Shown here piece after piece: positions 9,144 through 59,198 of a stretch of 64,000 bases of DNA; positions within the stretch are counted from its first letter, which is position 1, and every line of letters starts with the position of its first letter. Made by a program: the position numbers and the translations under genes. This stretch comes from Bacilli bacterium (GTDB lineage Bacteria > Bacillota_I > Bacilli_A > RF39 > UBA660): the NCBI GenBank assembly GCA_028707455.1, contig JAQWAY010000001.1, positions 9,764 to 73,763 of the forward strand, given 5' to 3'. Under the pieces are notes generated by a model, which was not told the origin of the DNA, did not search any database, and saw only the letters and a list, made by a program, of their open reading frames with translations.

Positions 9144-9196
9144 AATTTCACCTCTATTAAAAGTGTGGACAATTATGAGTTATTTATACAAGATTT

Positions 9197-13881: not shown

Positions 13882-13901
13882 AAAGAGCAAATGCTCTTTT
13901 A
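13882..13901. terminator. Perfect hairpin AAAAGAGCAaatGCTCTTTT at the 3-prime end of the giant gene
   Basis: A palindrome flanked by A and T runs overlaps the stop codon. Confidence 0.5.
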
Positions 13902-16900: not shown

Positions 16901-18992
16901 AGAATGTTTTTTCAGCCAGTGGAGCTGTTTTATCCACTATAAAATTATATGTGTTTAAATTTCCAGCAGCATCACTAAAATCAATGCTTATATCCTTTGT
17001 TCTATAGTAATAATTGTAATATGTATTATTACCCAATGATCTCCATTCACTCTTACTTTTTGTAAAACCTGTAACATCTTCACTAAATTGAATAGTTACC
17101 TTAATTCTACCCTTTTCTTTAGCTTCGTATGTTTGATTAAAATCAATAACTTCAGGACGTTCATTATCAAATACAAATGGTCCAGCATTACTTACTATTC
17201 CGTTATTAGCGTTATCTTGAGCGTACACCCATAAATAATAAGTTCCATTTAAATTAGATGGTGCCACTGCTATTAATGGATCTTCTTCGTTATTTTCTAA
17301 ATGAGTTTGAATACTTATAGACTCAATACCTTCAGAAGCTTCTAACCATTGATATCTTAATTGTTTGATACCACTTAAATCACTTGCACTTAAAGTTACA
17401 TTATGATTTTGGCTTGATTCACCACTTGTACTTCCAAAATTAATTGTTGCTTTTGTCTTATCAATATTAGTTATTTCATATGTTACTTCATCTGAAATAT
17501 TTCCAGCAACATCTTTTACTCTTACGGTTACTGCTTGATTCTTTTTAAATGTTGCAAAATTTTCAGTTTGCCATTCGCCACTATTAAATTGGTATCCTGC
17601 AATACCACCGTGATCTTCAGCATTAACTGTTAAAATTATATCTTTATTAATTGGATTTTCATTGTTTGAAGTTATAGTTATATTTTTGGGTGCTTCATTA
17701 TCTAAATTAAATCCTTTTGTTCTTACTACTTCTTGATTCCCAGCCTTATCAGTAGCGACTACAACTAAATAATAAGTTCCTGTTTCTCCTTTAGGAGTAT
17801 ATAAATCTTTTGTATTTTCAAAGGTCGCAAATGATGAATCATTTATGTCAATATTTTGATTTTTTGTCCATACATATTTAAGTGAATCTGTATTGAAACC
17901 ACTTAAATCATCAGTAACAGTTGCTGCTCTTGCATGAGCTTTACGATAGTGATTTGAATAATTAACATAATTTAATTTAATTATTGGTGCTAATTTATCA
18001 ATATTATCGATAGAACCTTCTGATAAAGCAACAGTTTTTACTATATCATGATTAAAACTAACACATGCTACATAGTTACCATTTTCAGTAGCTACATATG
18101 AATATTCATCAGTTATTTCTTTAGCAACCATTTCTAGAAGACTAAAAATACTCATTGGTTTAGTATCTTCATCTTCTACTTCACAAGTGTTTCCTTGCTT
18201 AAATTCAATATTTTGAATTAAGTCTTTATCATAATTTGAAACATTTAATTTTAATGTAATATCTTTATTAGTCCATTCTGTAGTGCTTGGATCTAATGTT
18301 AAGATTGCATTATTAATTGCTTCTATTTCTTCTTCTAATTTTGTAATATCATTAAGTAAGTTTTGAATTGAATTTACTGATGTTAATTTATTACTAACAT
18401 TAGCTTTATTAAGTTCATCTTCATTACCAATTATTCCTTGTAATTGATTTAATAAATCTTTTAAATTATTATTAAGATTTTCATCCTCTGAATAATTACC
18501 TAAAAGTTTATTACTATTAGTAATTGCATTACTTAACTTTGTATTAATCTTCTTGTCAATACTGTTGATTAGATTAGAAATTGTAGTAGTTTGTGTATTA
18601 ACATTTGCTTGAGTAGTATTTCTAGTATTTAATAAAGTTTTAGCTTTCTTAATTTCTAGTTCAAGCGAATTTAGTAAACTTACTAATTCTTCATCTTCTG
18701 TTTCTATTTTTTCATAGCTGTCGGTGCTATTTACGGCTGTTTGTAAAGTTCCATAGTTGGTAACTACGTTTTGTTGTACTGGTACAACATTTTTTTCTTC
18801 TTCTGTTTTTTTAGTTTCTTCTTGAGGTGCTTTTTCATCATCTTTTTCCTTTTCACCATTGTTATTGTCTTTTTCATGGCTATCTGGATCTTTGACTTCA
18901 TTTAAATCTTCGTTTGGATTAGCAAACGTAAATACAAACAATCCAATTAATACGAACAACACAATAGCGAAAATTCTTTTCCTGTTTATCAT
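13899..18992 (-). CDS. Giant surface protein of 1697 aa: N-terminal signal anchor, coiled-coil region, and more than 10 cadherin-like/Ig-like beta-sandwich repeats
   Basis: An N-terminal hydrophobic anchor (IFAIVLFVLIGLFVFTF) is followed by a K/E/N-rich coiled-coil segment. Repeated modules then carry YYLxVxAxDxAGN and FN(I/L)DN(E/T)(A/L)P junction motifs reminiscent of cadherin DxNDN linkers. There is no LPXTG motif. RBS: GGAGGAAAATTAT then ATG. Confidence 0.6.
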   Translation of the reverse strand: MINRKRIFAIVLFVLIGLFVFTFANPNEDLNEVKDPDSHEKDNNNGEKEKDDEKAPQEETKKTEEEKNVVPVQQNVVTNYGTLQTAVNSTDSYEKIETEDEELVSLLNSLELEIKKAKTLLNTRNTTQANVNTQTTTISNLINSIDKKINTKLSNAITNSNKLLGNYSEDENLNNNLKDLLNQLQGIIGNEDELNKANVSNKLTSVNSIQNLLNDITKLEEEIEAINNAILTLDPSTTEWTNKDITLKLNVSNYDKDLIQNIEFKQGNTCEVEDEDTKPMSIFSLLEMVAKEITDEYSYVATENGNYVACVSFNHDIVKTVALSEGSIDNIDKLAPIIKLNYVNYSNHYRKAHARAATVTDDLSGFNTDSLKYVWTKNQNIDINDSSFATFENTKDLYTPKGETGTYYLVVVATDKAGNQEVVRTKGFNLDNEAPKNITITSNNENPINKDIILTVNAEDHGGIAGYQFNSGEWQTENFATFKKNQAVTVRVKDVAGNISDEVTYEITNIDKTKATINFGSTSGESSQNHNVTLSASDLSGIKQLRYQWLEASEGIESISIQTHLENNEEDPLIAVAPSNLNGTYYLWVYAQDNANNGIVSNAGPFVFDNERPEVIDFNQTYEAKEKGRIKVTIQFSEDVTGFTKSKSEWRSLGNNTYYNYYYRTKDISIDFSDAAGNLNTYNFIVDKTAPLAEKTFSNNNGNAVTPNDVIVTLTANEEIQDIEGWNRVNSKTFTRVFAENGKYSVDIKDLIGNPNTINFEVKRIDKVAPVINGVENNGLYNVDIEYEIIEKNVRNIIIDGVTYDEKTPRTGVVSEEGSHTITVTDKANHSTTVTFTIDKTAPNANQRIFRINATDHYATIGTRLYLKLSYTEQLSTFPVVTIAGVTIKEYTVSKDTSGNVYYAYYLTITEDVASNLKQNENIPFKVSGYKDIAGNEGKEYTTVSNRDYIIFDSIKPTITVKKESIGNEPYFSNISFKLFDENLKEADLNGTLLDKSSNSWGDINAVSTNKYFGKAGNNTLILRDKAGNETEYEFYLDNEAPVVNVIGNPTNLTNKDVVLTINATDNSGMLSESPYSFDGGTTWGTEKTASYADNQTVNIWVKDYVGNISKKEIVIDKIDRNVIEIIKIGGNTGNGSTLPIKGADNDIRLRVKTYTAGYKTSYVWTTSAEQPMDEEFVKSVNMNKEYNWVNANTSGNFFKRPITGIYYLWYKIEDAYGNELYYRTDSFNIDNTLPDVTISGNPENLTNKDVVLTINATDNSEMLAESPYSFDGGTTWGTKTTATYTENQTVNIWVKDFAGNINKKEIIIDKIDRDVIKITKVLNNGKVDPVMDSGQGGRPRITVNAKEGLNANAGIKYVWTTSAEQPEDSEFTIIINTDGSTNFVKYPKNIKEVISNPNGIYYLWFMIEDKVGNIIYYRTNSFNIDNTLPVINLKVSDGSYTYDYGKSTYVEHGATATDNADGEIEVTTEGSINDKVAGVYTITYKATDRAGNTATKERLVFIRPLVTAPENFEHELGEDFIAPQATVTISEDEKFFINPLPNRFNKDQKGDYKLEYQYVLSTEKGEIRSLGKNTIVSVVDTTVPTIKINDPIYTRGSNKKCGWLGCITIPFSDVDILVNVEDKDAISELKYIWSENPYWTPKEWAWKNLASTFENNTIFERRLLGDGILNWKLWIYAKDISGNTSIISSDIIHNNN
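14700..15880. repeat. Tandem near-identical duplication (2 x ~590 bp) inside the giant surface-protein gene
   Basis: DNA at about 14703-15290 is highly similar to about 15289-15880. For example, ggtaatgtattatcaatattaaatgaat at 14703 matches the run at 15289, and a long near-identical run ...ccccatgtagttccaccatcaaatgaatatggtgattctg... occurs in both copies. The protein copies are NLTNKDVVLTINATDNS...YSFDGGTTWGT...NIWVKD. Confidence 0.8.
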
Positions 18993-19184: not shown

Positions 19185-19210
19185 ATCGACACAATTCGAC
19201 ACGATTCGAC
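19185..19210. repeat. Three tandem copies of (A)TTCGACAC immediately downstream of lepB
   Basis: The sequence atcgacacaattcgacacgattcgac shows a direct repeat with an ~10-bp period. Confidence 0.5.
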
Positions 19211-19738
19211 TTACTTAACAAAAGATATTTTTGTTAGTGGCCAGATTTTTAAAAACGGCTTTCCGATGATGTCTTTTCGCTTAATCAAACCAAAAGTTCT
19301 ACTGTCTAAAGAATTATTTCTATTGTCCCCTAAAACTAAATACATATTCTCAGGAATCGTATTATAACCTATTTCTTCAAGAGAAAAATCTTCAGTCATT
19401 AATCCATCAACTATCTTTTCTTCATAAGCTTTATCATTTATATATAAAATGTTATCTTTATATGTTATTGTCTCTCCTGGTAGTCCTATTACCCTTTTTA
19501 CTAAATACTTTGTATCGCCATAATCAAACGCAATAACTTCGTTACGTTCTGGTTCTCTAAATGTATATATAAACTTATTTAAGATTATAATATCACCATT
19601 ATTTAATGTTGGTTGCATAGAAGGTCCTACTACTTGTTGTAATGAAACGACATAAACTACAACAAATATAATACCTATTGCTACTAATATATATTTTATA
19701 ACGTCTTTGAAAAATTCTTTTATTTCTCTTAAATCCAT
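19211..19738 (-). CDS. lepB: Signal peptidase I (S26 family)
   Basis: It has an N-terminal TM segment, the catalytic Ser box GPSMQPTL, and a later Lys box. Confidence 0.85.
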   Translation of the reverse strand: MDLREIKEFFKDVIKYILVAIGIIFVVVYVVSLQQVVGPSMQPTLNNGDIIILNKFIYTFREPERNEVIAFDYGDTKYLVKRVIGLPGETITYKDNILYINDKAYEEKIVDGLMTEDFSLEEIGYNTIPENMYLVLGDNRNNSLDSRTFGLIKRKDIIGKPFLKIWPLTKISFVK

Positions 19739-26215: not shown

Positions 26216-26749
26216 CTACAAATATTTTTCAATTAGTTCTTTAATAAAAAACTTATATTCAACTTTATCATTTTCCGTTCCTTCTAATAAACATAATGGT
26301 GGAAAAAGAACACACCACCAGTTATCACCTTCACCTTTTCCTAAGGTTACTAGTAGTGATTCATAGTATCCCTCACTATAGACTACATCGTTGAATTCCT
26401 TTTCCGGAAAGTAATTATATCCAAAATTAACTTGATATTTTAATGGGTAATTTTCACGCGTTAATAAACTGTTAATTGACATATCGATTTTTTCTAAATT
26501 ATCATGAATAATACCTCTTGCATCAGCTATTCCTTTGGTATTTTTAAGTAAATGATACATTTCATCTTGTAGTAAAATCGATACTTTTTGTTTGATCGTT
26601 TGATCTTTCTTACTATTACTATTAGGAACTACTCTAAGCCTAATAGCTTCATCTGGAATAACTATTTTATTTGCATAAACATTACCTATAAGTAAATAGA
26701 AAGATAAAATACCTAATAAAATAATGAGCGTTTTATTCATCAATATCAT
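26216..26749 (-). CDS. spoIIR: Stage II sporulation protein R
   Basis: It has a signal peptide and the IRLRVVPNSNS and NWWCVLFPPLC motifs conserved in SpoIIR. Confidence 0.7.
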   Translation of the reverse strand: MILMNKTLIILLGILSFYLLIGNVYANKIVIPDEAIRLRVVPNSNSKKDQTIKQKVSILLQDEMYHLLKNTKGIADARGIIHDNLEKIDMSINSLLTRENYPLKYQVNFGYNYFPEKEFNDVVYSEGYYESLLVTLGKGEGDNWWCVLFPPLCLLEGTENDKVEYKFFIKELIEKYL

Positions 26750-37716: not shown

Positions 37717-37745
37717 TAAAAAAAAGTAATTAAATTACTTTTTTA
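37717..37745 (-). terminator. Hairpin AAAAAAAGTAATTaaATTACTTTTTT overlapping the noc-like stop codon
   Basis: A perfect 11-bp stem is followed by a T run in minus-strand orientation. Confidence 0.5.
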
Positions 37746-39417
37746 TTTTAAATATTACTTGATATATATCTTCAAAATCTATTTCTTCAATTTCAACATC
37801 AAATCCAATACCTTCTACCTTAGTACCACATTCTCTAATAATATCTATAGCATCCTTTAATACTTTACCTTCTTGAAGTATTGGTTCAACTATTTTTTCC
37901 TCTTCAATATCTTGATTTATATTATTAACTGGTTCAATTGCCTCATCAGTAGTTGATGCAATTGGCTCAAAAGGATTATTGAAAATTGGGTTTAGTGTCT
38001 CAACCTCAGTAGTTATTTGTGGTTGATCTTGTTCTTTTGGTTGCATTGGAATATCTATAGGTTGAACTGGAACTTCCACTGGTTGTGCTTGTTCTAAAGG
38101 TTGTACTAATGCTTCCGCTGGCTGAAAAGGTACATCACTTGGAAGTGGTGTTTCTATAATAGGCGAATCATTATTAACTGATTCTGCTGGTTCTGTTTCT
38201 GGTTCTTCATTTAAAATATCAAAGAACTTTCCTGGAGTTAATATGTTTTCTGGTTGTTCTACTTCAAAATCAAAACCAACATTATTATTATTATTATTAT
38301 TATTATTTTGAGCTGCAAAAGCTGAATCTGGCTCTAATAATGAGTTAACGTCAGCTAAAGGTTTATCTTCATTTATATTTTTAGCTTCCGTTGCAATTTT
38401 TTCTATATTCATAAAACCAGGATTAATTTCATTATCTATTTGTTCTTCAATAAAAATAGGTTCTTCTGATTTAGTTTCCTCTACTTTTTCTTCTGGTTGT
38501 TCTACAATAGGAGTACTTGGTAGATTAATTGATTCTTCAATATTCTCATTTATTATAGGTGAAGATGGAAGATTAACTGATTCTTCAACTTTATCATCTA
38601 TTATTGAAGAAGTTGGTAAATTTAAATTAGATGGAGTATTAAAAATATCAACTGTTGGTTGTTCAATATTATTATTCATTGAGTTATTCCTTTCTTCAAT
38701 TGGTCGTATTCCTAAAATGGAATCAACCGTTGGTGAAAACGTATTTTCTTCTGTTGGTTGTTCAAAAGCACTTACATCTAACACTTCAACTTCATCGGAA
38801 GAAACAACATCATTTTGATTCAATATTTTATCAATTTCGTCATCTGTTTTTCTAACTGTTAGTCTATTATCTATTATTTTATTTAATATTTCTATTTGTT
38901 GACTACTCTTATTAAGTCTTAAAATAGATCGTGCATGTCTTTCTGATATTTTTCCTTCTAATAATGCTTCTTGGACATCTTCATGTAAATTTAATAATCT
39001 TAATTTATTAGCTATTGTTGATTGCTTATTTCCTAACTTGCTAGCTAATTGTTCTTGAGTAAACCCCATATCTAAAATCTTTTTATATGATATAGCTTCT
39101 TCAATTGGTGTTAAATCTTGTCTTTGAACATTTTCAATTAAGGCTACTTCAGCACTATCTTTATCATTTAAATCAGTTATAATAGCAGGTATACTATTTT
39201 TACCAGCTAAAACACTAGCTTTATATCTTCTTTCTCCAGCTATTATTTCATATTTATCACCAATTGCTCTAACCACAATAGGTTGAATTACTCCATGTTC
39301 TTTTATTGATTCAGATAATTCATTTATTGCTTCTTCGCTAAACTTAATTCTTGGTTGAAAACGATTTGGTAAAATATCCGCAAGATTTAATTCAGTTATT
39401 CTTTTCTCAATATCCAC
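37735..39417 (-). CDS. noc: Noc-type ParB-family nucleoid occlusion protein homolog with an atypical ~370-aa acidic low-complexity C-terminal extension
   Basis: Residues 1-190 form a ParB N-domain plus HTH: PNRFQPRIKF, GERRYKA, and GNKQSTIANKLRLLNL...ISERHAR. From memory these match B. subtilis Noc (PNRFQPRTIF; QSTIANKLRLLKL) better than Spo0J (PNPYQPRKHF). The gene lies directly downstream of rsmG, as noc does. The rest of the protein is a P/E/Q/N-rich disordered region with a poly-Asn run. Confidence 0.7.
   Translation of the reverse strand: MDIEKRITELNLADILPNRFQPRIKFSEEAINELSESIKEHGVIQPIVVRAIGDKYEIIAGERRYKASVLAGKNSIPAIITDLNDKDSAEVALIENVQRQDLTPIEEAISYKKILDMGFTQEQLASKLGNKQSTIANKLRLLNLHEDVQEALLEGKISERHARSILRLNKSSQQIEILNKIIDNRLTVRKTDDEIDKILNQNDVVSSDEVEVLDVSAFEQPTEENTFSPTVDSILGIRPIEERNNSMNNNIEQPTVDIFNTPSNLNLPTSSIIDDKVEESVNLPSSPIINENIEESINLPSTPIVEQPEEKVEETKSEEPIFIEEQIDNEINPGFMNIEKIATEAKNINEDKPLADVNSLLEPDSAFAAQNNNNNNNNNVGFDFEVEQPENILTPGKFFDILNEEPETEPAESVNNDSPIIETPLPSDVPFQPAEALVQPLEQAQPVEVPVQPIDIPMQPKEQDQPQITTEVETLNPIFNNPFEPIASTTDEAIEPVNNINQDIEEEKIVEPILQEGKVLKDAIDIIRECGTKVEGIGFDVEIEEIDFEDIYQVIFKIKK
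38281..38307. repeat. (ATT)9 microsatellite, which is (AAT)n on the coding strand, encoding the poly-Asn run inside noc-like
   Basis: The run attattattattattattattattatt is in frame, so slippage would change only the Asn count. Confidence 0.8.
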
Positions 39418-45998: not shown

Positions 45999-46018
45999 CA
46001 CTGAAAAAACAGTGGTAG
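45999..46018 (-). terminator. Hairpin between rpmH and rnpA (attenuator/terminator)
   Basis: ACCACTG-aaaaaa-CAGTGGT is followed by a T run in minus-strand orientation. Confidence 0.5.
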
Positions 46019-46021
46019 TTG

Positions 46022-46144
46022 TTAATGGGATAATACTTTACGTCCTTTTTTTCTTCTTCTTTTTATAATTGATGTTTTCATACGAGCAAAGAATCCCATT
46101 TTTTTACTTCTTTTTCTTGTATTTGGTTGAAAAGTTCTTTTCAT
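46022..46144 (-). CDS. rpmH: 50S ribosomal protein L34
   Basis: Hand translation of the minus strand gives [40 protein letters not shown] followed by a stop. It is too short for the ORF track. Confidence 0.9.
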
Positions 46145-46255
46145 ACGTATACACCTCCTGAAATTTAATTTTTTGTGTGTTGCTAATTCATTATATATAT
46201 AAAAGCGGCTTTTGTCAAACTTTTTTTTCTTTATTTATAATACAAATATATAGTT

Positions 46256-46448
46256 TAGTGGAAAAAAATACTCACAAATATGTTTTCCACAGTATTTTGT
46301 TTTTTTATTTATATATATTTAATATCTTTTAACTAGTTTTCCACAAATGTGTGGAAAAGTTATGAACTTTTATATGTTAATAACTTTTTTTCCACTTTGT
46401 ATGTGGAAAAGTGTCTTTTATGAATGTTTTTAATAACTTTTTTCCACA
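46256..46448. promoter_or_regulatory. oriC, the DnaA-box cluster upstream of dnaA
   Basis: At least seven TTTTCCACA, TTTTCCACT or inverse TGTGGAAAA boxes lie at 46256, 46284, 46337, 46349, 46387, 46402 and 46440, in both orientations. An AT-rich tract sits at 46300-46326. Confidence 0.75.
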
Positions 46449-46515
46449 TTTTAATTGTTATTTATGAAAAAATAAGGTAAAATGTTAATTAGATGGTGAA
46501 TTGAGGTGGTTTGGT

Positions 46516-47868
46516 ATGAAAATAGAAGTTATTTGGGATTCTTTTTTAAATAAAATTAAAGAAGAGTTAAAACAACCATTACTATATGATGCTTGGTTTG
46601 CTGAAACTAAATTAATCGAATTAAAAGATGATTATGCTAAAATATTAGTTCCAATGCCTATCCATAAAAAACATTTAAAAAGTAATTACAATGATTTAAT
46701 TGAAAAAACATTTAATGAAATTACTGGTTCTAATTTTAAAATTGAGTATATTACAGAAGAAGAGTTAGAACAAAATATTGTTATTGATACTGATAATATG
46801 GGGGTCCCTGCTGATGTATTTGTATCTAATCTAGATCCTAAACATACATTTGATAATTTTATAGTTGGGGAAAGTAATAAATTTGCTAAATATAATGCTC
46901 TTGCTGTAGCAGAAAAACCAGGACAGATTTATAATCCTTTATTTATATATGGGTCAAGTGGTCTTGGGAAAACCCATTTAATGCACGCAATTGGAAATTA
47001 TATTGTGGAAAATAGTAATAAAAAGGTATTATATACGACAAGTGATTACTTTGTTAATGATTTTGTTGAACTATATAAACATAAAAGCAGTAAGAATAAC
47101 TTTGATATTGTTGATAAATTTAAAGAAAAGTATAGAAGTTTAGATGTTCTAATTATAGATGATATTCAATACTTAGAAATTGCACCTACATCACAACAAG
47201 AATTCTTTAATACATTCAATGATTTACATAATAATAAAAAGCAAATTATTATTGCTTCAGATCGTTCACCAGATGATTTAAGAAAATTGGAAGATAATCT
47301 TCGTACAAGATTCAATTGGGGACTTACAGTTAATATTTTTCCACCGGATTTTGAATTAAGAATGAATATTATCGATACTAAAATTAAATCGTATGAAATG
47401 ATGTTTGATTTTCCACAGGATGTTAAAGAATATATTGCTAGTAATTGTACTAGTGATATAAGGAAACTTGAAGGTGCTATTAATCGTGTATATGCTTACG
47501 CAACTATAATGAATGGTTCTAATATAACTTTAGAATTAGCTATTGAAGCTTTAAAAGATTATTTTGTAAAAAGTATTATATCAAAAAATAAAATTGAACA
47601 AGTACAGCAATTGGTTGCTAATCGATATAATATTACTGTGGAAGATTTAAAAAGTAAAAGGAGAAGTGCAAACATTGGAGTTCCGCGACAAATTGCTATG
47701 TATATATGTCGCATATACCTAGAAGAACCTTTTGCTAGAATCGGTAGTGATTTTGGTGGTAAGGATCATACAACAGTAATGCACTCTGTTGATAAAATAA
47801 CTAAAGAATTACAAAAGGATCCACAGTTAGCTACAGAAATAGAAAATATTGTTAACAACATGAAATAG
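46516..47868 (+). CDS. dnaA: Chromosomal replication initiator DnaA
   Basis: It has AAA+ Walker A GSSGLGKTHL and a C-terminal DnaA-box-binding HTH. The start was set to the ATG at 46516 (MKIEVIW), which has a GAGGTGG RBS. Confidence 0.9.
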   Translation: MKIEVIWDSFLNKIKEELKQPLLYDAWFAETKLIELKDDYAKILVPMPIHKKHLKSNYNDLIEKTFNEITGSNFKIEYITEEELEQNIVIDTDNMGVPADVFVSNLDPKHTFDNFIVGESNKFAKYNALAVAEKPGQIYNPLFIYGSSGLGKTHLMHAIGNYIVENSNKKVLYTTSDYFVNDFVELYKHKSSKNNFDIVDKFKEKYRSLDVLIIDDIQYLEIAPTSQQEFFNTFNDLHNNKKQIIIASDRSPDDLRKLEDNLRTRFNWGLTVNIFPPDFELRMNIIDTKIKSYEMMFDFPQDVKEYIASNCTSDIRKLEGAINRVYAYATIMNGSNITLELAIEALKDYFVKSIISKNKIEQVQQLVANRYNITVEDLKSKRRSANIGVPRQIAMYICRIYLEEPFARIGSDFGGKDHTTVMHSVDKITKELQKDPQLATEIENIVNNMK

Positions 47869-47946
47869 TGGAAAACAATTGTCGTAAATTAATTATATTT
47901 GTATGGTTTAATTACCAAAAAAGAATTTTCCACCATTTCCACCACA
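47867..47946. promoter_or_regulatory. Second DnaA-box cluster, between dnaA and dnaN, with a following AT-rich tract that is a candidate DUE
   Basis: AGTGGAAAA lies at 47867, and TTTTCCACC and TTTCCACCA at 47926-47946. A nearly pure A/T stretch runs 47950-48010. Confidence 0.55.
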
Positions 47947-48025
47947 ATAATAATAATACTTAATATAAAAAATATATAATATTATTTTGAAAAAAAGTCT
48001 TAATTAATAATTAAAGGAGGATATT

Positions 48026-49147
48026 ATGAAAATATCAATTAAAAAAAATATTTTAATGGAACATTTAAATTATGTTATTAAAGGAATTTCAAGTAAAAAC
48101 TTAATACCTATATTAAATTGTATTAAATTTGAATTAACAAGTGAAGGATTATATCTATTAAGTACAGATAATGAAATAGCTATTAAAACTTTTATCAATA
48201 AAAGTGAAATAGAAAATATTGAAGAAAAGGGAGATTTAGTAATTTCTGGAAGGTATATTTATGATATTATTAGAAAATTACCAAATGAAGTTATTCATAT
48301 TGAAGAATTAATTGATTCAAAAGTTAAAATATATACTTCTAACTCATCATTTAATTTAAATTGTAATAATCCATCTGAATTTCCTCAACTAGAATTAGAA
48401 GAACATAAAAATCCTATCAATATTAATAAAAAAGTATTTAAAAACATAGTTCAACAAACTATTTTTGCTACATCAAATCAAGAATCAAGACCAGTTTTAA
48501 CAGGTTTAAATTTTGTTATTAAAGATGATTTAGTAGAATGTACAGCAACAGATTCATATCGCCTTGCTAAAAAAAATGTAAAATTGCAAGATAATGTGGG
48601 GGAAAATATCAATATAATTATTCCTACTAAAAACTTAAATGAAATTAATAAATTATTAAATGATGAAGAAGAAAATATTCAATTACATATTTTCTCAAAT
48701 AAAATAATATTCAAATTTAGTACTATTACTTTTATGTCTAGATTAATAAATGGTACATATCCTGATACTAAAGCATTAATACCAACTGATTTCTTATTAA
48801 CAATAAAAGTAAAATTAGCGGATTTTTATGATTCTATTGATCGTGCTTCATTATTAACTAGTGAAAGTGATAAAAATACTATTAAACTCGAAAGTAAAAA
48901 TAATATCCTAGTTATTTCTTCAAATATTCCTGAAATAGGTAATGTTGAGGAAAAAATCGAGGGAATCAAAAATAATGATGAAGAAATAAAAATAGCTTTT
49001 AGTTCTAAATATATGATGGAAGCTTTAAAGTCATTAGAATGTGAAGAAATATTATTAATGTTTAATGGGGAAATTAAACCAATCATTGTGAAAAATCCTG
49101 AAAGCGATGATTTAATTCAATTAATTTTACCAATTAGAACATATTAA
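48026..49147 (+). CDS. dnaN: DNA polymerase III beta sliding clamp
   Basis: At 373 aa it has three-domain clamp architecture. The RBS is AAGGAGG. Confidence 0.9.
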   Translation: MKISIKKNILMEHLNYVIKGISSKNLIPILNCIKFELTSEGLYLLSTDNEIAIKTFINKSEIENIEEKGDLVISGRYIYDIIRKLPNEVIHIEELIDSKVKIYTSNSSFNLNCNNPSEFPQLELEEHKNPININKKVFKNIVQQTIFATSNQESRPVLTGLNFVIKDDLVECTATDSYRLAKKNVKLQDNVGENINIIIPTKNLNEINKLLNDEEENIQLHIFSNKIIFKFSTITFMSRLINGTYPDTKALIPTDFLLTIKVKLADFYDSIDRASLLTSESDKNTIKLESKNNILVISSNIPEIGNVEEKIEGIKNNDEEIKIAFSSKYMMEALKSLECEEILLMFNGEIKPIIVKNPESDDLIQLILPIRTY

Positions 49148-49175
49148 AATGAAGTTTTGCTTCATTTTTTTATTT
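49148..49175 (+). terminator. dnaN rho-independent terminator
   Basis: AATGAAGttttgCTTCATT is followed by TTTTTTATTTT. Confidence 0.65.
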
Positions 49176-49266
49176 TCCACCTTTTTCGACAATATACGAC
49201 AAAAAGAAGGTGTATAAGGATATTGATTCCTTTTGAGGAAAATATTAGTAGGGGGGAAGTGAGGAT

Positions 49267-49725
49267 ATGAGAGATAGTTACGAAATCAACAGAGGTACTT
49301 TAGCAATAATTCCAGTTACAGATAAAATTTCGCAAGTTATTGAGGATGAAAATCAATTTTTAGTAAGAAAATCAACCACTAAAATAATTGATGAGAGTTG
49401 TAAGTTTTTTGGAAGTTCGTATTTAGGCAGGAAAGATGGTACAAAAAGATTAATTGGTGTAACATATAAAGCACCAATTATTGTTTGTGAATCTAGTGGC
49501 ATAATCTTTTTTCCAACAAGCTCACCACGTTTTGATAATTGTCATTGGATATCATTAAATAACTTAAAAGATTACACGAAACATAAAACAGATATTAATA
49601 AATGTATTGTAACATTTAAAAATGACAAAGAAATACAATTAAATTTATCATTTTTTATCTTAGAAAATCAAATATATCGTGCAACTATGTTGGAATCTAA
49701 ATTAATGAAGCTAAAAACAGCCTAA
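49267..49725 (+). CDS. comK: ComK-family transcription factor homolog, short form lacking the C-terminal ~40 aa of B. subtilis ComK
   Basis: Conserved ComK blocks are present: YEINRGTLAIIPV, SCKFFGSSYLGRKDGT, FFPTSSPRFDNCHWIS and ENQIYRATMLESK. The comparison to the B. subtilis ComK blocks YEVNGATIAVLPE, SCRFFGSSYAGRKAGT and ENQVYRTAWLRTK is from memory. Confidence 0.65.
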   Translation: MRDSYEINRGTLAIIPVTDKISQVIEDENQFLVRKSTTKIIDESCKFFGSSYLGRKDGTKRLIGVTYKAPIIVCESSGIIFFPTSSPRFDNCHWISLNNLKDYTKHKTDINKCIVTFKNDKEIQLNLSFFILENQIYRATMLESKLMKLKTA

Positions 49726-49750
49726 AATAAGCAATATTGCTTATTTTTTC
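49726..49750 (+). terminator. Terminator after the comK-like gene
   Basis: AATAAGCAATATTGCTTATT is followed by TTTTCTTTTTTT. Confidence 0.6.
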
Positions 49751-49854
49751 TTTTTTTAATATAAATAATGTGATATAATATTTATGTGTATAGGACTACT
49801 AATAAGTACTAAAAAAATCTAAAAAGGGCAAAAAAATGGAAATGAGGCAATAAT

Positions 49855-50985
49855 ATGATTCTAAAGAGTATAAAAATTGAGAACTTTAGAAATTATGAAG
49901 CTTTAGAATTATTATTTGATAAAAAAATAAATATTATATATGGAAATAATGCCCAAGGTAAAACAAATATATTGGAGAGTATTTATGTATTAGGTTTAAC
50001 TAAATCACATCGATCATTCATAGATAATAATTTAATAAAAAATGGATTTAATAGAGCAAAAATTAGTGGAGTTGTTTTTAATAATAGACTTAACACTAAT
50101 ATGGAAGTGACTATTGAAAATAAAACAAAACATTTAAAAATTGATAATAGTGATATAAAAAAAACAAGTGATTATATTTCTAAATTAAATATTATTATCT
50201 TTTATCCAGAGGATTTAGAATTAATAAAGGGTTCTCCTAGCATAAGAAGGAAATATTTTAATTTAGAACTAAGTCAATTATATAGTCAATATTTTAAGGT
50301 TTTAAATGATTATAAGAAAATATTAAAAATAAGAAATGAATATTTAAAGCAAATGCAAAAAAATATTAAAGTAGATCAAACTTATTTTGATATATTGACT
50401 GAATATTTAATAGATAAAGCTATTTTTATATATAAAGCACGTGATAAGTTTCTTTTACGAATAAATGAATCATGTGAAAAGATTTATGAAAAGGTTTCAG
50501 GTAGCAAAGGATTAAATATTAAATATAGTCCTTATTTTAACTTTGAAAGTTTTGAAACAGATTATTTAAAACAATTTTTAAAGGATAAATGCTTAAAAAT
50601 GTATAATACCGAAATTAAATTAGGTATGACTTTAGTAGGACCACATCGAGATGATTTTATTTTTTATTTAAAGGATAAAAACTTAAAAGAATATGGTTCA
50701 CAAGGTCAACAAAGGTTAGCTGTTATTGCTTTAAAATTAGCAGAGGTTGAAGTTTTTAAAAATTATAATAAAATAAATCCTATTTTATTATTAGATGATG
50801 TCTTTAGCGAGTTAGATGATACTAAAAAAAATAAACTACTAAGATATATATCAAAAAATACCCAAACTTTTATAACAACAACCGATTTAAATAATATAAA
50901 TCAAAAGACATTAAGTAAAGCTAAAATATTTAAAATTAAAGAAGGCAAAGTAATAAAAACAAAAGAGGTGGAAAAAAATGGGTAA
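49855..50985 (+). CDS. recF: DNA replication and repair protein RecF
   Basis: It has Walker [10 protein letters not shown] and an SMC-like C-terminal signature. Confidence 0.9.
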
Positions 50986-52903
50986 TGAACAACATTATGA
51001 TGCATCAGATATTCAAGTATTAGAAGGATTAGAGGCAGTTAGAAAAAGACCTGGTATGTATATTGGAACAACAAGTTCAAGAGGATTACATCATTTAGTA
51101 TGGGAAATAGTTGATAATGCTATTGACGAGGCTTTAGCAGGTTATTGTGATGATATAGAAGTTATTATTAATAAAGATAATTCTATTACTGTTAAGGATG
51201 ATGGTAGGGGAATTCCTGTTGGTATTCATAAAAAAACAGGGATATCAACTGTTGAAACAGTATTTACAATACTACATGCAGGAGGAAAATTTGGTGGTGG
51301 AGGCTATAAAGTATCCGGTGGACTTCATGGAGTTGGTGGAAGTGTTGTTAATGCACTTAGTAGTTGGTTAGAAGCTACAATTTATCAAGGTGGAAAAGTT
51401 CACCATATTCGTTTTGAAAATGGAGGTAAACCAGTAAAATCACTAGAAGTAATTGACACATGTTCTTTAGAAAGAACAGGAACTACTATTACTTTTAAAC
51501 CAGATCCTACTATATTTACTGAAACTCAATTATTTGATTATGAGTTATTAAGAACAAGAATAAGAGAATTAGCATTCTTAAATAAAAATTTAAGAATTAT
51601 TTTGTGTGATGAAAGAGATAATAATGAACTTAAAAAGGAAGAATTTGTATATGAAGGTGGAATAAGTGCTTATGTTGAATTATTAAATAAAAGTAAATCA
51701 CCTATTCATGAAAATATTATCCATTTTGAAGGTGAAGTTGATAATGTTTCCCTTGAAGTGGCGTTTCAATATAATTCTAGTTATACAACAAATGTATATT
51801 CATTTACTAATAATATTCACACTCACGAGGGTGGTACCCATGAAGATGGTGTAAAAAACTCATTAACTAGAATTGTTAATAATTATGCTCGTAATAATAA
51901 GATTATAAAAGATAATGAAGAATCTTTAACTGGGGATGATGTTAGGGAAGGTTTAACAATGATTATATCTTGTAAACATCCTGATCCTCAATTTGAAGGT
52001 CAAACTAAAACAAAATTAGGAAATAGTGAAGTTAGAAAGATAGCATCTGATGTATTTAGTGAAGGATTTGAAAGATTTTTATTAGAAAATCCAGATCAAG
52101 CTAAAATAATCATTGAAAAAGCAATAACTGCATCTCGTGCAAGAATAGCCGCTAAAAAGGCACGTGAATTAACTCGTCGAAAAGGTGGACTTGAATTAAC
52201 AAATCAATGGGGAAAATTAACTGATTGTTCTTCAAAGGATGCATCAATTTCTGAAGTTTTTATAGTTGAAGGGGATAGTGCTGCAGGACCAGCAAAGCAA
52301 GGTAGAAATTCTGAAACACAAGCAGTATTACCAATTCGTGGTAAAATTTTAAATGTTGAAAAAGCTAGATTAGATAGAATCTTTAGTAATGAAGAAATAA
52401 GAAGTATGATAACAGCTTTTGGAACAGGTATTGGTGAAGATTTTGATATTACTAAATTAAGATATCACAAAATAATTATTATGACAGATGCTGATGTTGA
52501 TGGTGCACATATTAGAACGTTGTTGTTAACCTTCTTCTATAGGTACTTTAAACCGTTAGTTGAAGCAGGACATATTTATGCCGCTCAACCACCTTTATAT
52601 AAAATTAGTCATGGCAAAACAAATAAATATGTTTTAAATGAAGAAGAACGTGATGAATATATAGCTACATTACCAGAAAATACCAATTATGATATAACCC
52701 GTATGAAAGGGTTAGGTGAAATGGACGCTATAGAATTAAGAGAAACAACAATGCATATAGATTCACGAGTATTAGTAAGAATCGAATTAGACGATGCTAT
52801 ACAAGCAGACGAAATATTCCAAGTTTTAATGGGTGAAGAAGTTGAGCCTAGAAGAAAATTTATCGAAGATAATGCATTAAATGTTAAGAATCTTGATGTG
52901 TAA
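50978..52903 (+). CDS. gyrB: DNA gyrase subunit B
   Basis: It has a GHKL ATPase N-domain, a TOPRIM domain (EGDSAGG), and a tail. It is 641 aa. Confidence 0.95.
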
Positions 52904-55417: not shown

Positions 55418-55576
55418 TGTTTCACGTGAAACAAAATAATACATACAATGTTCCACGTGAAACTTTAATTAGTGAATCATTAATTATAAAAATTGTTTCA
55501 AAATTCAACGTTCCACGTGAAACAATTACAATTAGATATAAAATAACTAAAAAAAAGTAATGTTCCACGTGAAACG
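55418..55576. promoter_or_regulatory. Cluster of four parS centromere-like sites
   Basis: TGTTTCACGTGAAACA lies at 55418-55433, TGTTCCACGTGAAACT at 55449-55464, CGTTCCACGTGAAACA at 55509-55524, and TGTTCCACGTGAAACG at 55561-55576. All match the Firmicute parS consensus tGTTNCACGTGAAACa with 0-1 mismatches. Confidence 0.8.
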
Positions 55577-55633: not shown

Positions 55634-55680
55634 ATAATAAAAAATTTGATTTATAATTAGAAATAGTGTATCTTATATAA

Positions 55681-55753
55681 GACACAACATTTATGTTCGA
55701 ATCAGGTCAGAATCGGAAGATAGCAGCCTTAAGGACCTCTAAATGTGTGTGTC
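55681..55753 (+). ncRNA. ffs: Small (4.5S-type, minimal) SRP RNA
   Basis: It contains the SRP domain IV signature CAGGUCAG...AAUCGGAAGAUAGCAGCC...UUAAGG, which compares to E. coli GGUCAGGUCCGGAAGGAAGCAGCCAAGG. The terminal helix GACACAACAUUU/AAAUGUGUGUGUC is followed by CCUUUUUU. Its position next to tadA and dnaX matches Bacillus scr. Confidence 0.6.
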
Positions 55754-55767
55754 CTTTTTTATTGTAG

Positions 55768-59000: not shown

Positions 59001-59198
59001 GTGGACAAAATGTTGAAAAAAATATTGAAATTAGCTAAAAAGATAATTGTAAGTGCCTTTTTTATATATGGATATAATATAATTATGGCACCTCTTAATT
59101 TAATAATTCCAATTAATATCATAACGGTTTTAGCTGTTACTTTATTTGGTTTTCCAATGTTGTTATCTTTAATTGTAATATTATTAATAGTTTTTTAA
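59001..59198 (+). CDS. bofA: BofA-like small membrane protein (pro-sigma-K processing inhibitor family)
   Basis: The 65-aa protein has two TM helices. Its PLNLIIPINIITVLAVTLFGFP resembles the BofA core. It lies after recR, as in Bacillus. Confidence 0.4.
   Translation: MDKMLKKILKLAKKIIVSAFFIYGYNIIMAPLNLIIPINIITVLAVTLFGFPMLLSLIVILLIVF

What the first reader, a model, noticed from the sequence alone, without database searches (positions are those of the whole stretch)
49148..49854. ComK-family regulator inserted as a stand-alone transcription unit between dnaN and recF
The slot between dnaN and recF is normally occupied by the small S4-like yaaA gene in Firmicutes. Here a ComK homolog sits between the dnaN terminator and its own terminator. 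All four conserved ComK blocks are present, but the protein is about 40 aa shorter at the C-terminus than B. subtilis ComK. A competence-type regulator embedded in the core replication operon of a spore former is unusual. It could couple a ComK regulon, or a different function of this short paralog, to origin-proximal gene dosage.
Basis: partly seen in the sequence, partly recalled or inferred. Interest (0 to 1): 0.6.

Follow-up and report, generated by a model that had tools for sequence, protein, structure and literature searches.

The report
Origin-linked short ComK with Spo0A-type promoter
A real but shortened ComK-type regulator gene sits between dnaN and recF. This position is fixed across a whole lineage of uncultured small-genome Bacilli, and its conserved promoter looks like one switched on by the sporulation master regulator Spo0A.

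Summary
ORF 49267-49725 (152 aa) matches Pfam ComK at 155 bits over the whole model. It lies between a dnaN terminator and its own terminator, and recF has a separate promoter.

The word "inserted" is misleading. Of 80 species-level genomes with a relative, 75 show dnaN-comK-recF. Four more are cut by contig ends but fit the pattern, and one has the gene elsewhere. No S4/yaaA gene occupies the slot in any of them. The lineage includes Ca. Fimihabitans (GTDB order RF39).

The gene is under purifying selection (dN/dS 0.02-0.21, like DnaN and RecF). It lacks the C-terminal tail that in B. subtilis ComK carries the MecA/ClpCP degron.

The new result is the promoter. Two or three TTCGACA boxes sit 10 bp apart and end 11, 21 and 31 nt before a TATAAG -10. 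TTCGACA is the exact reverse complement of the Spo0A box TGTCGAA. The exact box is about 70-fold enriched in this spacer. No B. subtilis-type K-boxes are present. The window also carries spoIID, spoIIQ-like, spoIIR and bofA.

Best reading: a short ComK controlled at transcription by Spo0A~P. Its targets, competence genes or otherwise, and any gene-dosage role remain untested.

The parts
48026..49147 (+). dnaN (DNA polymerase III beta clamp), the upstream neighbour
   Evidence: ORF of 373 aa. Pfam DNA_pol3_beta domains 1-3 on the identical gene in L001-L005.
49146..49176 (+). dnaN intrinsic terminator: a 10-bp A+T-rich hairpin followed by a T-run
   Evidence: Fold energy -7.5 kcal/mol, z = -4.8, and 0 of 200 shuffles fold as well. 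A hairpin plus T-run is visible at this position in most of the aligned spacers of relatives, by eye; it was not counted.
49175..49181 (+). Distal box 3, degenerate (TTCCACC), ending 31 nt before the -10
   Evidence: Position matches the third phased box seen in relatives. It matches 5 of 7 positions.
49185..49191 (+). Box 2, TTCGACA: the exact reverse complement of the Spo0A 0A box TGTCGAA, ending 21 nt before the -10
   Evidence: One search gives the site. Across 70 spacers (69 loci plus the window), 26 have a box (at most 1 mismatch) at this offset. The 0A-box consensus is from PMC3485338.
49195..49201 (+). Box 1, TACGACA (6 of 7), ending 11 nt before the -10
   Evidence: 45 of 70 spacers have a box at this offset. 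Box starts are 10 bp apart in 36 cases and 20 bp apart in 15.
49213..49218 (+). -10 hexamer TATAAG, preceded by GTG
   Evidence: TATAAG is the best -10 in 42 of 70 spacers, found without using the boxes. T, A, T, A, A are 96-100% conserved in the anchored set of 52.
49219..49246 (+). 5' leader inverted repeat (GATATTGATTCC...GGAAAATATT). It is weak in this genome.
   Evidence: Fold energy -5.4 kcal/mol, z = -1.1 here. A hairpin was folded at this position in the 41 of 52 relatives whose leaders are long enough, with different sequences; mean z = -2.5 and 33 of 41 have z below -1.5. Its function is unknown.
49250..49264 (+). Ribosome-binding region (AGGGGGGAAGTGAGG)
   Evidence: Read from the sequence. 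Relatives have GGAGG or GGGGG at the same place.
49267..49725 (+). Short-form ComK-family gene (152 aa; the stop codon is included in the coordinates)
   Evidence: Pfam ComK at 155.4 bits. 40% identity to B. subtilis ComK residues 10-154. dN/dS 0.02-0.21. AlphaFold2 model with mean pLDDT 81.
49724..49757 (+). comK intrinsic terminator (AAAATAAGCAATATTGCTTATTTT followed by a T-run)
   Evidence: Fold energy -8.1 kcal/mol, z = -3.7. A comparable hairpin (often aataagc...gcttatttttt) is visible in many relatives by eye; it was not counted.
49771..49779 (+). recF promoter with an extended -10 (TGaTATAAT)
   Evidence: Read from the sequence. TGnTATAAT recurs at this position in most of the 78 comK-recF spacers, by eye.
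49788..49799 (+). Conserved recF leader motif GTATAGGACTAC (consensus GTATAGGAGTAC)
   Evidence: Recurs in most relatives at the same distance from the recF -10, by eye. No Rfam match. Its function is unknown.
49855..50985 (+). recF, the downstream neighbour. It overlaps gyrB (50978-52903).
   Evidence: ORF of 376 aa. Pfam SMC_N.

Best explanation
ORF 49267-49725 encodes a functional short-form ComK-family DNA-binding protein. It is transcribed on its own, between the dnaN terminator and its own terminator. The dnaA-dnaN-comK-recF-gyrB-gyrA order is ancestral and fixed in a lineage of uncultured, low-GC, small-genome Bacilli that carry sporulation genes. The lineage includes the RF39 genus Ca. 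Fimihabitans. All of this is shown.

The protein keeps the whole ComK core but ends before the C-terminal tail. In B. subtilis that tail is the MecA/ClpCP degron and is needed for activation at comG. I infer that this protein is not controlled by MecA/ComS proteolysis.

Control appears to be transcriptional instead. The promoter has two or three head-to-tail boxes of consensus TTCGACA(aaa), exactly 10 bp apart, ending 11, 21 and 31 nt before a TATAAG -10. It has no -35 element at 17 bp. Box 2 offers a -35-like TCGACA at about 21 bp. This matches what I recall of Spo0A~P-activated sigma-A promoters such as spoIIG and spoIIE. I infer that Spo0A~P, the starvation and sporulation master regulator, occupies the phased boxes and switches comK on at entry into stationary phase or sporulation. 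That would be a stripped-down, stronger version of the direct Spo0A~P input known at the B. subtilis comK promoter.

What the protein then regulates is not shown. It could be DNA-uptake genes or something else. The origin-proximal position adds maximal gene dosage and early presence on both sides of a sporulation septum. Whether selection acts on that position is unknown.
For: Family identity:
- Pfam ComK at 155 bits over the full model.
- 40% identity to the B. subtilis ComK core.
- 1065 related cluster representatives, with about 150 aa the commonest length among the best hits.

Function retained:
- dN/dS of 0.02-0.21 in 12 pairs, similar to DnaN and RecF.

Synteny:
- 75 of 80 species-level loci show dnaN-comK-recF, 4 are cut by contig ends but consistent, and 1 is an exception.
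- The same order recurs in divergent metagenome contigs L088, L093, L127 and L165, where ComK is 34-45% and DnaA 45% identical.

Stand-alone unit:
- Two terminators and a recurring recF TGnTATAAT promoter.

Missing tail:
- The alignment ends at B. subtilis residue 154 of 192.
- The degron FMLYPKEERT...GERY is the ComK C-terminus (PMC8138137).
- Deleting 25 C-terminal residues abolishes activation but not DNA binding (PMC3128618).

Boxes:
- Exact TTCGACA occurs at 4.4 per kb in 9.4 kb of dnaN-comK spacers against 0.06 per kb in 921 kb of surrounding DNA. 41 of the 57 forward-strand exact sites lie in the spacer.
- Offsets to an independently located -10 are 11 nt (45 times), 21 nt (26) and 31 nt (28).
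- 52 of 63 tandem sites lie in this promoter.
- The position weights are TT[C/T]GACA.
- The 0A box is TGTCGAA, conserved between Bacillus and Clostridioides Spo0A (PMC3485338).
- Spo0A~P binds the B. subtilis comK promoter directly (PMC3297582).

Evidence that a general regulator binds the boxes, not a comK-specific one:
- A second triple cluster lies at window 19185-19211.
- Perfect triple boxes, with a -10-like hexamer about 11-13 nt after the last box in L124 and L140, lie upstream of spoVS, soj/parA, an orphan histidine kinase and other genes. Some of these contigs are about 60% GC.

Sporulation context:
- spoIID, spoIIQ-like, spoIIR, bofA and spoVT.
- RF39 is predicted to form spores (PMC10868615).
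Against: - No spo0A gene was seen, because only about 74 kb of this genome could be read. Its presence rests on the sporulation genes nearby and on a paper about RF39. The window's membership of RF39 is inferred from similarity to one named genus.
- No binding or expression data exist.
- In this genome only two good boxes are present, and the exact heptamer is not enriched in the window taken alone (3 found, 3.4 expected). The case rests on cross-species conservation.
- Box 1 ends only 11 nt from the -10, closer than the sites I recall for the classic activated promoters. Occupancy there could repress as well as activate.
- The spoIIG/spoIIE spacer lengths are from memory; I found no open paper to cite.
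- Lack of the tail that B. subtilis ComK needs for activation leaves open whether this protein activates anything.
- No late competence gene or K-box was found near it.
Confidence: 0.6

Rival explanations
1. The phased boxes are binding sites for the short ComK itself. This would be positive or negative autoregulation by a ComK whose specificity differs from the A/T-box specificity of B. subtilis ComK. Spo0A would not be involved.
For: - B. subtilis ComK activates its own promoter (PMC3297582).
- The boxes travel with the gene in the one genome where comK has moved (L023).
- The predicted fold's best PDB matches are LytTR domains (ComE, AgrA), a class I recall as binding direct repeats. The match is weak, E about 0.03.
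Against: - The box matches the Spo0A consensus at 7 of 7 positions.
- The same triple boxes occur upstream of spoVS, soj, a histidine kinase and other genes, including on roughly 60% GC contigs, and at a second site in the window.
- Known ComK sites are AAAA-N5-TTTT pairs, and these are absent here.
Confidence: 0.13
2. The boxes are weak DnaA boxes. On this view DnaA acts as a transcription factor and ties comK expression to the state of the replication initiator, which would explain why the gene sits 1.2 kb from oriC.
For: - The local DnaA box is TTTTCCACA. Its core TTCCACA differs from TTCGACA at one base.
- The window's distal box is TTCCACC.
- Most of the few tandem sites outside the comK promoter lie upstream of dnaA.
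Against: - The discriminating position is G in 77% and C in 3% of 156 aligned boxes. The consensus is therefore the Spo0A box, not the DnaA box.
- The flanks are A-rich on the 3' side, not the TTAT/TTTT prefix of DnaA boxes.
- The same motif occurs upstream of spoVS and other genes far from any origin.
Confidence: 0.06
3. Some other response regulator that binds 10-bp-phased direct repeats (OmpR/PhoB type) controls the gene. The identity to the 0A box would then be coincidental.
For: From memory, direct repeats one helical turn apart are typical of winged-helix response regulators such as PhoP and WalR. No spo0A gene was seen in the DNA available.
Against: - The consensus matches TGTCGAA exactly, including the C, G and C positions that correspond to the bases Spo0A contacts (G2, C4, G5; PMC3485338).
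- The motif is found across divergent Firmicutes-like contigs next to sporulation genes.
- Sporulation genes are present in the window.
Confidence: 0.08
4. The position between dnaN and recF has no regulatory meaning. On this view comK landed there once, perhaps when yaaA was lost, and has been kept only because the dnaA-gyrA block is rarely rearranged. Gene dosage or replication coupling would play no part.
For: - The whole rnpA-dnaA-dnaN-recF-gyrB-gyrA block is collinear in all loci.
- comK is insulated by terminators on both sides.
- In L023 the gene works from another locus with the same promoter.
- Other genes (prepilins, a transposase) have been inserted into the same spacer in a few genomes.
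Against: 75 of 80 retention over divergence down to 48% ComK identity, and in lineages with DnaA only 45% identical, is at least compatible with selection on position. From memory, chromosomal position matters for early sporulation genes (spoIIR) and for streptococcal competence genes near oriC.
Confidence: 0.45

Closest known systems
Bacillus subtilis ComK (192 aa), master regulator of competence and the K-state
   Same: Same Pfam family over its full length. 40% identity over the core, including the SC(K/R)FFGSSY and FPT motifs. Its promoter also receives direct Spo0A~P input (PMC3297582).
   Different: About 32 C-terminal and 7 N-terminal residues are missing, including the MecA/ClpCP degron. 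No K-boxes in its own promoter. It sits at oriC between dnaN and recF instead of about 1.1 Mb away (the B. subtilis position is from memory). The Spo0A-type boxes are near-consensus, tandem and abut the -10, whereas the B. subtilis sites are described as five sequences each with one or two mismatches to the consensus. Targets are unknown.
Bacillus cereus ComK2, a C-terminally truncated ComK paralogue
   Same: A naturally short ComK lacking the C-terminal region (22 aa there). ComK2 lowers instead of raising comG expression, showing that short forms can behave differently (PMC3128618).
   Different: ComK2 coexists with a full-length ComK1. No second ComK was seen here, though whole genomes were not scanned. 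ComK2 is not known to me to be origin-linked or to have phased 0A boxes.
Spo0A~P-activated sigma-A promoters of early sporulation genes (spoIIG, spoIIE)
   Same: 0A boxes overlap the -35 region, and a -35-like element sits at a non-optimal spacing of 21-22 bp (box 2 here is 21 bp from the -10). Tandem head-to-tail 0A boxes 10 bp apart are the arrangement crystallised with the Spo0A DNA-binding domain. These points are from memory. The box consensus and contacts are from PMC3485338.
   Different: There are three phased boxes, and the proximal one ends only 11 nt from the -10. The regulated gene is a ComK homologue, not a sporulation sigma-factor operon or phosphatase. According to PMC10868615, RF39 largely lacks spoIIE.
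yaaA (BSU00030), the small S4-like RNA-binding gene between dnaN and recF in B. subtilis
   Same: Same chromosomal slot (PMC3814617; the locus-tag order is from memory).
   Different: No sequence relationship. No small S4-type ORF lies in this spacer in the window or in any of the 80 loci.
Origin-proximal competence control genes comCDE of Streptococcus pneumoniae (from memory: Slager et al. 2014)
   Same: A competence-type regulator placed next to oriC, where replication stress raises its copy number relative to the terminus.
   Different: A different protein family (ComE is a LytTR response regulator) in an organism that does not sporulate. A dosage effect has not been tested here.

Membership tests
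ComK family (Pfam PF06338) | Significant full-length match to the family HMM | tested here: met
   155.4 bits against a cutoff of 22.3, E = 1.2e-45, profile positions 2-149 of 152.
ComK family (Pfam PF06338) | Pairwise similarity to the founding member, B. subtilis ComK | tested here: met
   40% identity and 61% positives over 147 residues, E = 2e-35. Its C-terminus matches the published degron string except for one extra residue.
B. subtilis-type ComK circuit | C-terminal tail carrying the MecA/ClpCP recognition sequence FMLYPK... | tested here: not met
   The alignment ends at B. subtilis residue 154 and the protein stops 6 residues later. The degron is defined in PMC8138137.
B. subtilis-type ComK circuit | K-boxes (paired AAAA-N5-TTTT with 8, 18 or 31 bp between them) in its own promoter for autoactivation | tested here: not met
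   None in window 49101-49900 and no exact K-box anywhere in the window. Only 6 of 70 spacers have one, all 120-150 nt upstream of the comK ATG, outside the box/-10 core.
B. subtilis-type ComK circuit | Controls late competence operons (comG, comE, comF, dprA, ssbB) | not testable with these tools
   None of these genes lies in the window or the fetched loci. The only hint is that prepilin-type genes lie between dnaN and comK in L056 and L063.
Spo0A-dependent promoter | One or more 0A boxes matching TGTCGAA | tested here: met
   TTCGACA at 49185-49191 and TACGACA at 49195-49201. Enrichment is 4.4 per kb against 0.06 per kb across relatives. Consensus from PMC3485338.
Spo0A-dependent promoter | Fixed, helically phased position of the boxes relative to the core promoter, conserved across species | tested here: met
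   Box starts are 10 bp apart (36 cases) or 20 bp (15). Offsets to the -10 are 11, 21 and 31 nt in 45, 26 and 28 spacers.
Spo0A-dependent promoter | spo0A present in the same genome | not testable with these tools
   Only about 74 kb of the genome could be read. Indirect support comes from spoIID, spoIIR, spoIIQ-like, bofA and spoVT, and from the prediction that RF39 forms spores (PMC10868615).
Spo0A-dependent promoter | Binding by Spo0A~P and Spo0A-dependent transcription | not testable with these tools
   This needs a gel shift, footprint or reporter assay.
yaaA (S4-like) occupant of the dnaN-recF slot | A small S4-domain ORF between dnaN and recF | tested here: not met
   The only ORF in the spacer is ComK. 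ORFs in the enlarged spacers of 8 loci are prepilins, a transposase-like ORF (judged by eye) or unknowns; none is an S4 protein.
LytTR-type DNA-binding fold | Structural match to solved LytTR domains | tested here: inconclusive

The most novel reading that the evidence does not exclude
The short ComK may not be a competence regulator at all. It may be a lineage-specific early developmental factor that Spo0A~P switches on and that acts on the chromosome origin region next to which it is encoded. For example, it could bind A+T-rich oriC or dnaA-dnaN DNA to stop new rounds of replication or to set chromosome state at entry into sporulation. That would make it a functional analogue of the Spo0A-induced replication inhibitor SirA, built from a ComK DNA-binding core that has lost its activation and degradation tail.
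Probability: 0.15. Interest if true: 0.75.

Novelty: new variant of a known kind. Interest (0 to 1): 0.5.

Why it matters
ComK is the textbook example of a bistable competence switch, and its control has been worked out almost entirely in B. subtilis. Here, an entire uncultured branch of gut and fermenter Bacilli with genomes of about 1.2-1.8 Mb keeps only the ComK core. This branch has fixed the gene beside the replication origin and appears to have replaced the MecA/ComS/Rok/K-box circuitry with a simple array of Spo0A boxes.

If that is correct, it gives three things:
- a minimal, testable form of the Spo0A-to-ComK link;
- a way to predict Spo0A regulons in organisms that cannot be cultured, since the same box-to-(-10) layout was found upstream of spoVS and other genes;
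- a natural experiment on whether ComK without its tail activates, represses or does something unrelated to DNA uptake.

It also warns against reading 'competence protein ComK' annotations in these genomes as evidence of transformability.

Tried and rejected
- **K-boxes.** The window has none, and no site is positionally conserved. The few hits lie 120-150 nt upstream of the comK ATG, outside the core promoter.
- **Generic scan.** The promoter/terminator scan found no terminators and no convincing promoter. It requires G+C-rich stems and a -35, so I replaced it with direct folding and cross-species alignment.
- **Rfam.** Nothing credible in 46000-50200 at E up to 1.
- **NCBIfam.** No ComK model hit. 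The 'ComK' name rests on Pfam.
- **Wasted look-ups.** Five exact-protein look-ups found nothing. Two used wrong minus-strand coordinates; three probably used different start codons from the gene caller.
- **Literature.** I found nothing on comK next to dnaN and recF, on RF39 competence, or an open source for the spoIIG 22-bp spacer.
- **DnaA-box reading.** Considered and rejected on the G-versus-C position.
- **Metagenome scan.** Many of the perfect-triple-box hits are simple satellite repeats and say nothing.
- **Further sites.** A scan of two more loci from this genome found no further tandem boxes.
- **Not possible.** I could not look for spo0A, comG/E/F, mecA, yaaA or a second comK elsewhere in the genome.
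Full report
**1. What is at the coordinates**

The interval 49148-49854 is the whole spacer between dnaN (48026-49147) and recF (49855-50985). It contains one ORF, 49267-49725 on the + strand, 152 aa. This ORF matches Pfam ComK (PF06338) at 155.4 bits against a cutoff of 22.3, covering positions 2-149 of the 152-position model. NCBIfam has no model that hits it, and no ComK structure has been solved.

The exact protein is on record in several assemblies. These include a 'Bacilli bacterium' genome assembled from a metagenome (GCA_028684055.1) and a fermentation metagenome, always in the same context.

BLASTP against B. subtilis ComK gives 40% identity over residues 10-154 of 192. Its C-terminus matches the degron string printed in PMC8138137 except for one extra residue. 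The protein is therefore 40 aa shorter overall: about 32 residues at the C-terminus and 7 at the N-terminus.

**2. It is a stand-alone transcription unit**

- Directly after the dnaN stop there is a 10-bp hairpin and a T-run (-7.5 kcal/mol, z = -4.8).
- Directly after the comK stop there is another (-8.1 kcal/mol, z = -3.7).
- The consensus scan missed both because it requires G+C-rich stems.
- recF has its own extended -10 promoter, TGaTATAAT at 49771-49779, which recurs at this position in most relatives by eye.

**3. It is not a one-off insertion**

A scan of one genome per species found 175 genomes with a relative. The best 80 loci were kept. I then ran tblastn with the window's own DnaA, DnaN, RecF, GyrB, GyrA, RnpA and YidC.

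| Result | Loci |
|---|---|
| Full dnaA-dnaN-comK-recF-gyrB-gyrA order | 75 |
| Cut by a contig end but consistent on the side present (L030, L034, L051, L071) | 4 |
| comK elsewhere, next to a polysaccharide deacetylase and valyl-tRNA synthetase, with its promoter (L023) | 1 |

Other features of these loci:
- ComK length is 148-155 aa in all but one locus. L052 was called at 167 aa, probably from an upstream start.
- The spacers are about 86-193 nt (dnaN to comK) and about 104-195 nt (comK to recF).
- A few genomes have something extra between dnaN and comK: prepilin-type proteins in L056 and L063, a transposase-like ORF (judged by eye) in L082, and unknowns in L052 and L073. None is an S4/yaaA-type ORF.
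- ComK identity to the window protein runs from 83% down to 48%, much like RecF, YidC and RnpA.
- dN/dS in 12 closer pairs is 0.02-0.21, comparable to DnaN and RecF.

One locus (L080) is Candidatus Fimihabitans. Its describers place this genus in GTDB order RF39, family CAG-822 (PMC8035907). I therefore call the lineage RF39-type, but I did not classify the window formally. Four further metagenome contigs keep the same order with ComK only 34-45% identical; in the two that include dnaA (L088, L165), DnaA is 45% identical. The trait therefore reaches beyond the 80 loci.

**4. The short form is common**

An exhaustive profile-free search of 1.84 billion cluster representatives found 1065 relatives at E up to 0.001. 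Among the best 150 there are two length classes. Most are about 145-157 aa and a minority are about 185-205 aa.

The tail that is missing here is the part of B. subtilis ComK listed as the MecA/ClpC degron (PMC8138137). Removing 25 C-terminal residues from B. subtilis ComK abolishes activation at comGA but not DNA binding. B. cereus ComK2, which naturally lacks 22 C-terminal residues, lowers comG expression (PMC3128618). I infer two things. This protein escapes MecA/ComS-type proteolytic control. And it cannot be assumed to activate transcription as B. subtilis ComK does.

**5. The promoter is the main new finding**

Lining up 70 dnaN-comK spacers shows a fixed layout:
- terminator;
- two or three direct repeats of tTCGACAaaa;
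- about 11 nt;
- TATAAG;
- usually a hairpin;
- GGAGG;
- ATG.

The counts used a -10 located without reference to the boxes:
- Exact TTCGACA occurs 41 times in 9.4 kb of spacers (4.4 per kb), against 0.06 per kb in the 921 kb of loci.
- Box starts are 10 bp apart 36 times and 20 bp apart 15 times.
- The gap from box end to -10 start is 11 nt (45 times), 21 nt (26) or 31 nt (28).
- TATAAG is the -10 in 42 of 70 spacers.

Of 63 tandem sites (at most 2 mismatches) in all loci, 52 are in this promoter. Most of the rest lie upstream of dnaA.

In the window the elements are:

| Element | Coordinates |
|---|---|
| Degenerate box TTCCACC | 49175-49181 |
| TTCGACA | 49185-49191 |
| TACGACA | 49195-49201 |
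| TATAAG (-10) | 49213-49218 |

The heptamer alone is not enriched in the window (3 found, 3.4 expected). The argument therefore rests on conservation across species.

**6. What binds the boxes**

TTCGACA is the reverse complement of the Spo0A '0A box' TGTCGAA. Spo0A makes base contacts at G2, C4 and G5, and the box is shared by Bacillus and Clostridioides Spo0A (PMC3485338). In the pooled boxes the corresponding positions are C 60% (T 37%), G 77% and C 85%.

The local DnaA box is TTTTCCACA. Its core differs from the repeat at one base. At that base the repeats have G in 77% and C in 3%, so they are 0A boxes and not DnaA boxes.

From memory, tandem head-to-tail 0A boxes 10 bp apart are the arrangement bound by two Spo0A effector domains. 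Also from memory, spoIIG and spoIIE are sigma-A promoters with -35-like elements 22 and 21 bp from the -10 that need Spo0A~P. Here box 2 places TCGACA 21 bp from the -10, and there is no -35 at 17 bp.

Spo0A~P is known to bind the B. subtilis comK promoter directly, at three activating and two repressing sites (PMC3297582).

Two further observations point to a general regulator, not a comK-specific one:
- The window has a second cluster of three phased boxes at 19185-19211. On the minus strand it reads AGTCGAA-TGTCGAA-TGTCGAT. It lies about 190 nt upstream of a gene for a 1697-aa surface protein.
- A metagenome scan for three perfect boxes found them upstream of spoVS (L124), soj/parA (L094), an orphan histidine kinase (L114) and an Rpn-like nuclease (L140). 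In L124 and L140 a -10-like hexamer follows the last box by about 11-13 nt. Triple boxes also occur on contigs of about 60% GC. Many other hits in that scan are satellites and carry no information.

**7. Is the host a spore former?**

The window encodes:
- SpoIID (9197-10108, passing the NCBIfam equivalog cutoff);
- an adjacent SpoIIQ-like M23 protein (8511-9143);
- SpoIIR (26216-26749);
- BofA (59010-59198).

SpoVT lies just past the window. A comparative study predicts that RF39 forms spores, with an unusual gene set that has spoIIGA, IIM, IIP and IIQ but largely lacks spoIIE and spoIIAB (PMC10868615). I could not read spo0A itself.

**8. What I did not find**

- No late competence genes in the window or the flanks.
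- No B. subtilis-type K-boxes.
- No known RNA family in the spacers.
- No literature on this arrangement.

**9. Interpretation**

Shown:
- family membership;
- purifying selection;
- a monocistronic unit;
- lineage-wide synteny;
- loss of the tail;
- phased 0A-type boxes at fixed positions;
- sporulation genes nearby.

Inferred:
- Spo0A~P occupies the boxes and turns the gene on;
- regulation has shifted from proteolysis to transcription.

Open:
- the targets;
- whether the protein activates or represses;
- whether the origin-proximal position is selected, for dosage or for early presence in both sporulation compartments, or is only inherited.

The rivals are ComK autoregulation through the boxes, DnaA, and another response regulator. 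The 0A-box identity and the occurrence of the motif elsewhere make each of them less likely, but none is excluded without binding data.

**10. Verdict**

The gene belongs to a known family, already annotated as ComK, but has three new and consistent features: a short form, a fixed origin-proximal slot and a Spo0A-type promoter. I rate it a new variant of a known kind, of moderate interest.

Noticed in passing
window 19185-19211 (boxes on + strand; the regulated gene is probably 13899-18992 on - strand): A second cluster of three 10-bp-phased Spo0A-type boxes (ATCGACA caa TTCGACA cga TTCGACT). It lies just after the signal-peptidase gene and about 190 nt upstream of the start of a 1697-aa Ig-like surface protein gene. 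Relative to that gene the boxes are in the TGTCGAA orientation.
   Followed up: partly
window 49219-49246; same position in L006-L085: A hairpin in the comK 5' leader starts a few nt after the -10. It was folded in the 41 of 52 relatives whose leaders are long enough, and the sequences are quite different (mean z = -2.5, 33 of 41 below -1.5). This suggests selection on the structure, not the sequence. In some genomes the stem is itself TTCGAC...GTCGAA. Eleven relatives have a short leader with no hairpin. It might stabilise the 5' end of the mRNA; its function is unknown.
   Followed up: partly
window 49771-49799; comK-recF spacers of L006-L085: recF has a TGnTATAAT promoter that recurs in most relatives by eye. 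About 8-10 nt downstream is a conserved motif, GTATAGGAGTAC (GTATAGGACTAC in the window), containing a Shine-Dalgarno-like AGGAG far from the start codon. No Rfam family matches. It might be a 5' stabiliser or a regulatory element of the recF-gyrB-gyrA transcript.
   Followed up: no
window 55418-55576: Four parS sites (TGTTNCACGTGAAACA, with 0 or 1 mismatch) are packed into 160 bp between gyrA and the SRP RNA gene; 0.09 are expected by chance. The ParB-domain protein in the window (37735-39417, - strand) is 560 aa, about twice the usual ParB length as I recall it.
   Followed up: partly
window 55676-55761 (+): Bacterial small SRP RNA (Rfam RF00169, 57.5 bits). It is the only Rfam family above its gathering score in the whole window.
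   Followed up: yes
model of window 49267-49722: The AlphaFold2 model of the short ComK (mean pLDDT 81, pTM 0.78) has LytTR DNA-binding domains as its best solved-structure matches: S. pneumoniae ComE, S. aureus AgrA and a B. cereus LytTR domain. The scores are weak (E 0.025-0.045, TM-score 0.35-0.57). If the similarity is real, the ComK and ComE competence regulators would share a DNA-binding fold.
   Followed up: partly
L056 4914-5399; L063 5791-6864: In two relatives, genes with a prepilin N-terminal methylation motif have been inserted between dnaN and comK. They match ComGC/ComGD models only weakly, in the N-terminal part. One of them also carries a laminin-G-like domain.
   Followed up: partly
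L023 480-1024: This is the only genome of the 80 in which comK is not next to dnaN and recF. Degenerate phased boxes (TTTGACA, ATAAACA, GCTGACA), a -10 and the leader hairpin moved with the gene, so promoter and gene behave as one cassette.
   Followed up: partly
L124 (boxes about 51 nt upstream of the spoVS start at 8549, - strand); L140, L104, L154: Three perfect boxes precede spoVS, an Rpn-family nuclease-like gene and unannotated ORFs in low-GC metagenome contigs, with a -10-like hexamer about 11-13 nt after the last box. This suggests a promoter class usable for predicting a regulon.
   Followed up: partly
window 46250-46450 and 47869-48025: Both halves of oriC are recognisable. Several TTTTCCACA DnaA boxes, some as inverted pairs, lie upstream of dnaA. 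Two more boxes plus an A+T-rich stretch lie between dnaA and dnaN, 1.2 kb upstream of comK.
   Followed up: no
L007, L008, L011, L012, L047, L060, L075, L085 (record titles): Several public genome bins carrying this clearly Bacilli-type origin region are labelled Ignavibacteriales, Muribaculaceae or Actinomycetes. This is probably mislabelling or mis-binning in the source records.
   Followed up: no
window 8511-10108 (-), 26216-26749 (-), 59010-59198 (+); L207 13959-14489: Sporulation genes cluster around the origin: spoIID next to a spoIIQ-like gene, and spoIIR, bofA and spoVT. From memory, this matches the origin-proximal placement of early forespore signalling genes in B. subtilis.
   Followed up: partly
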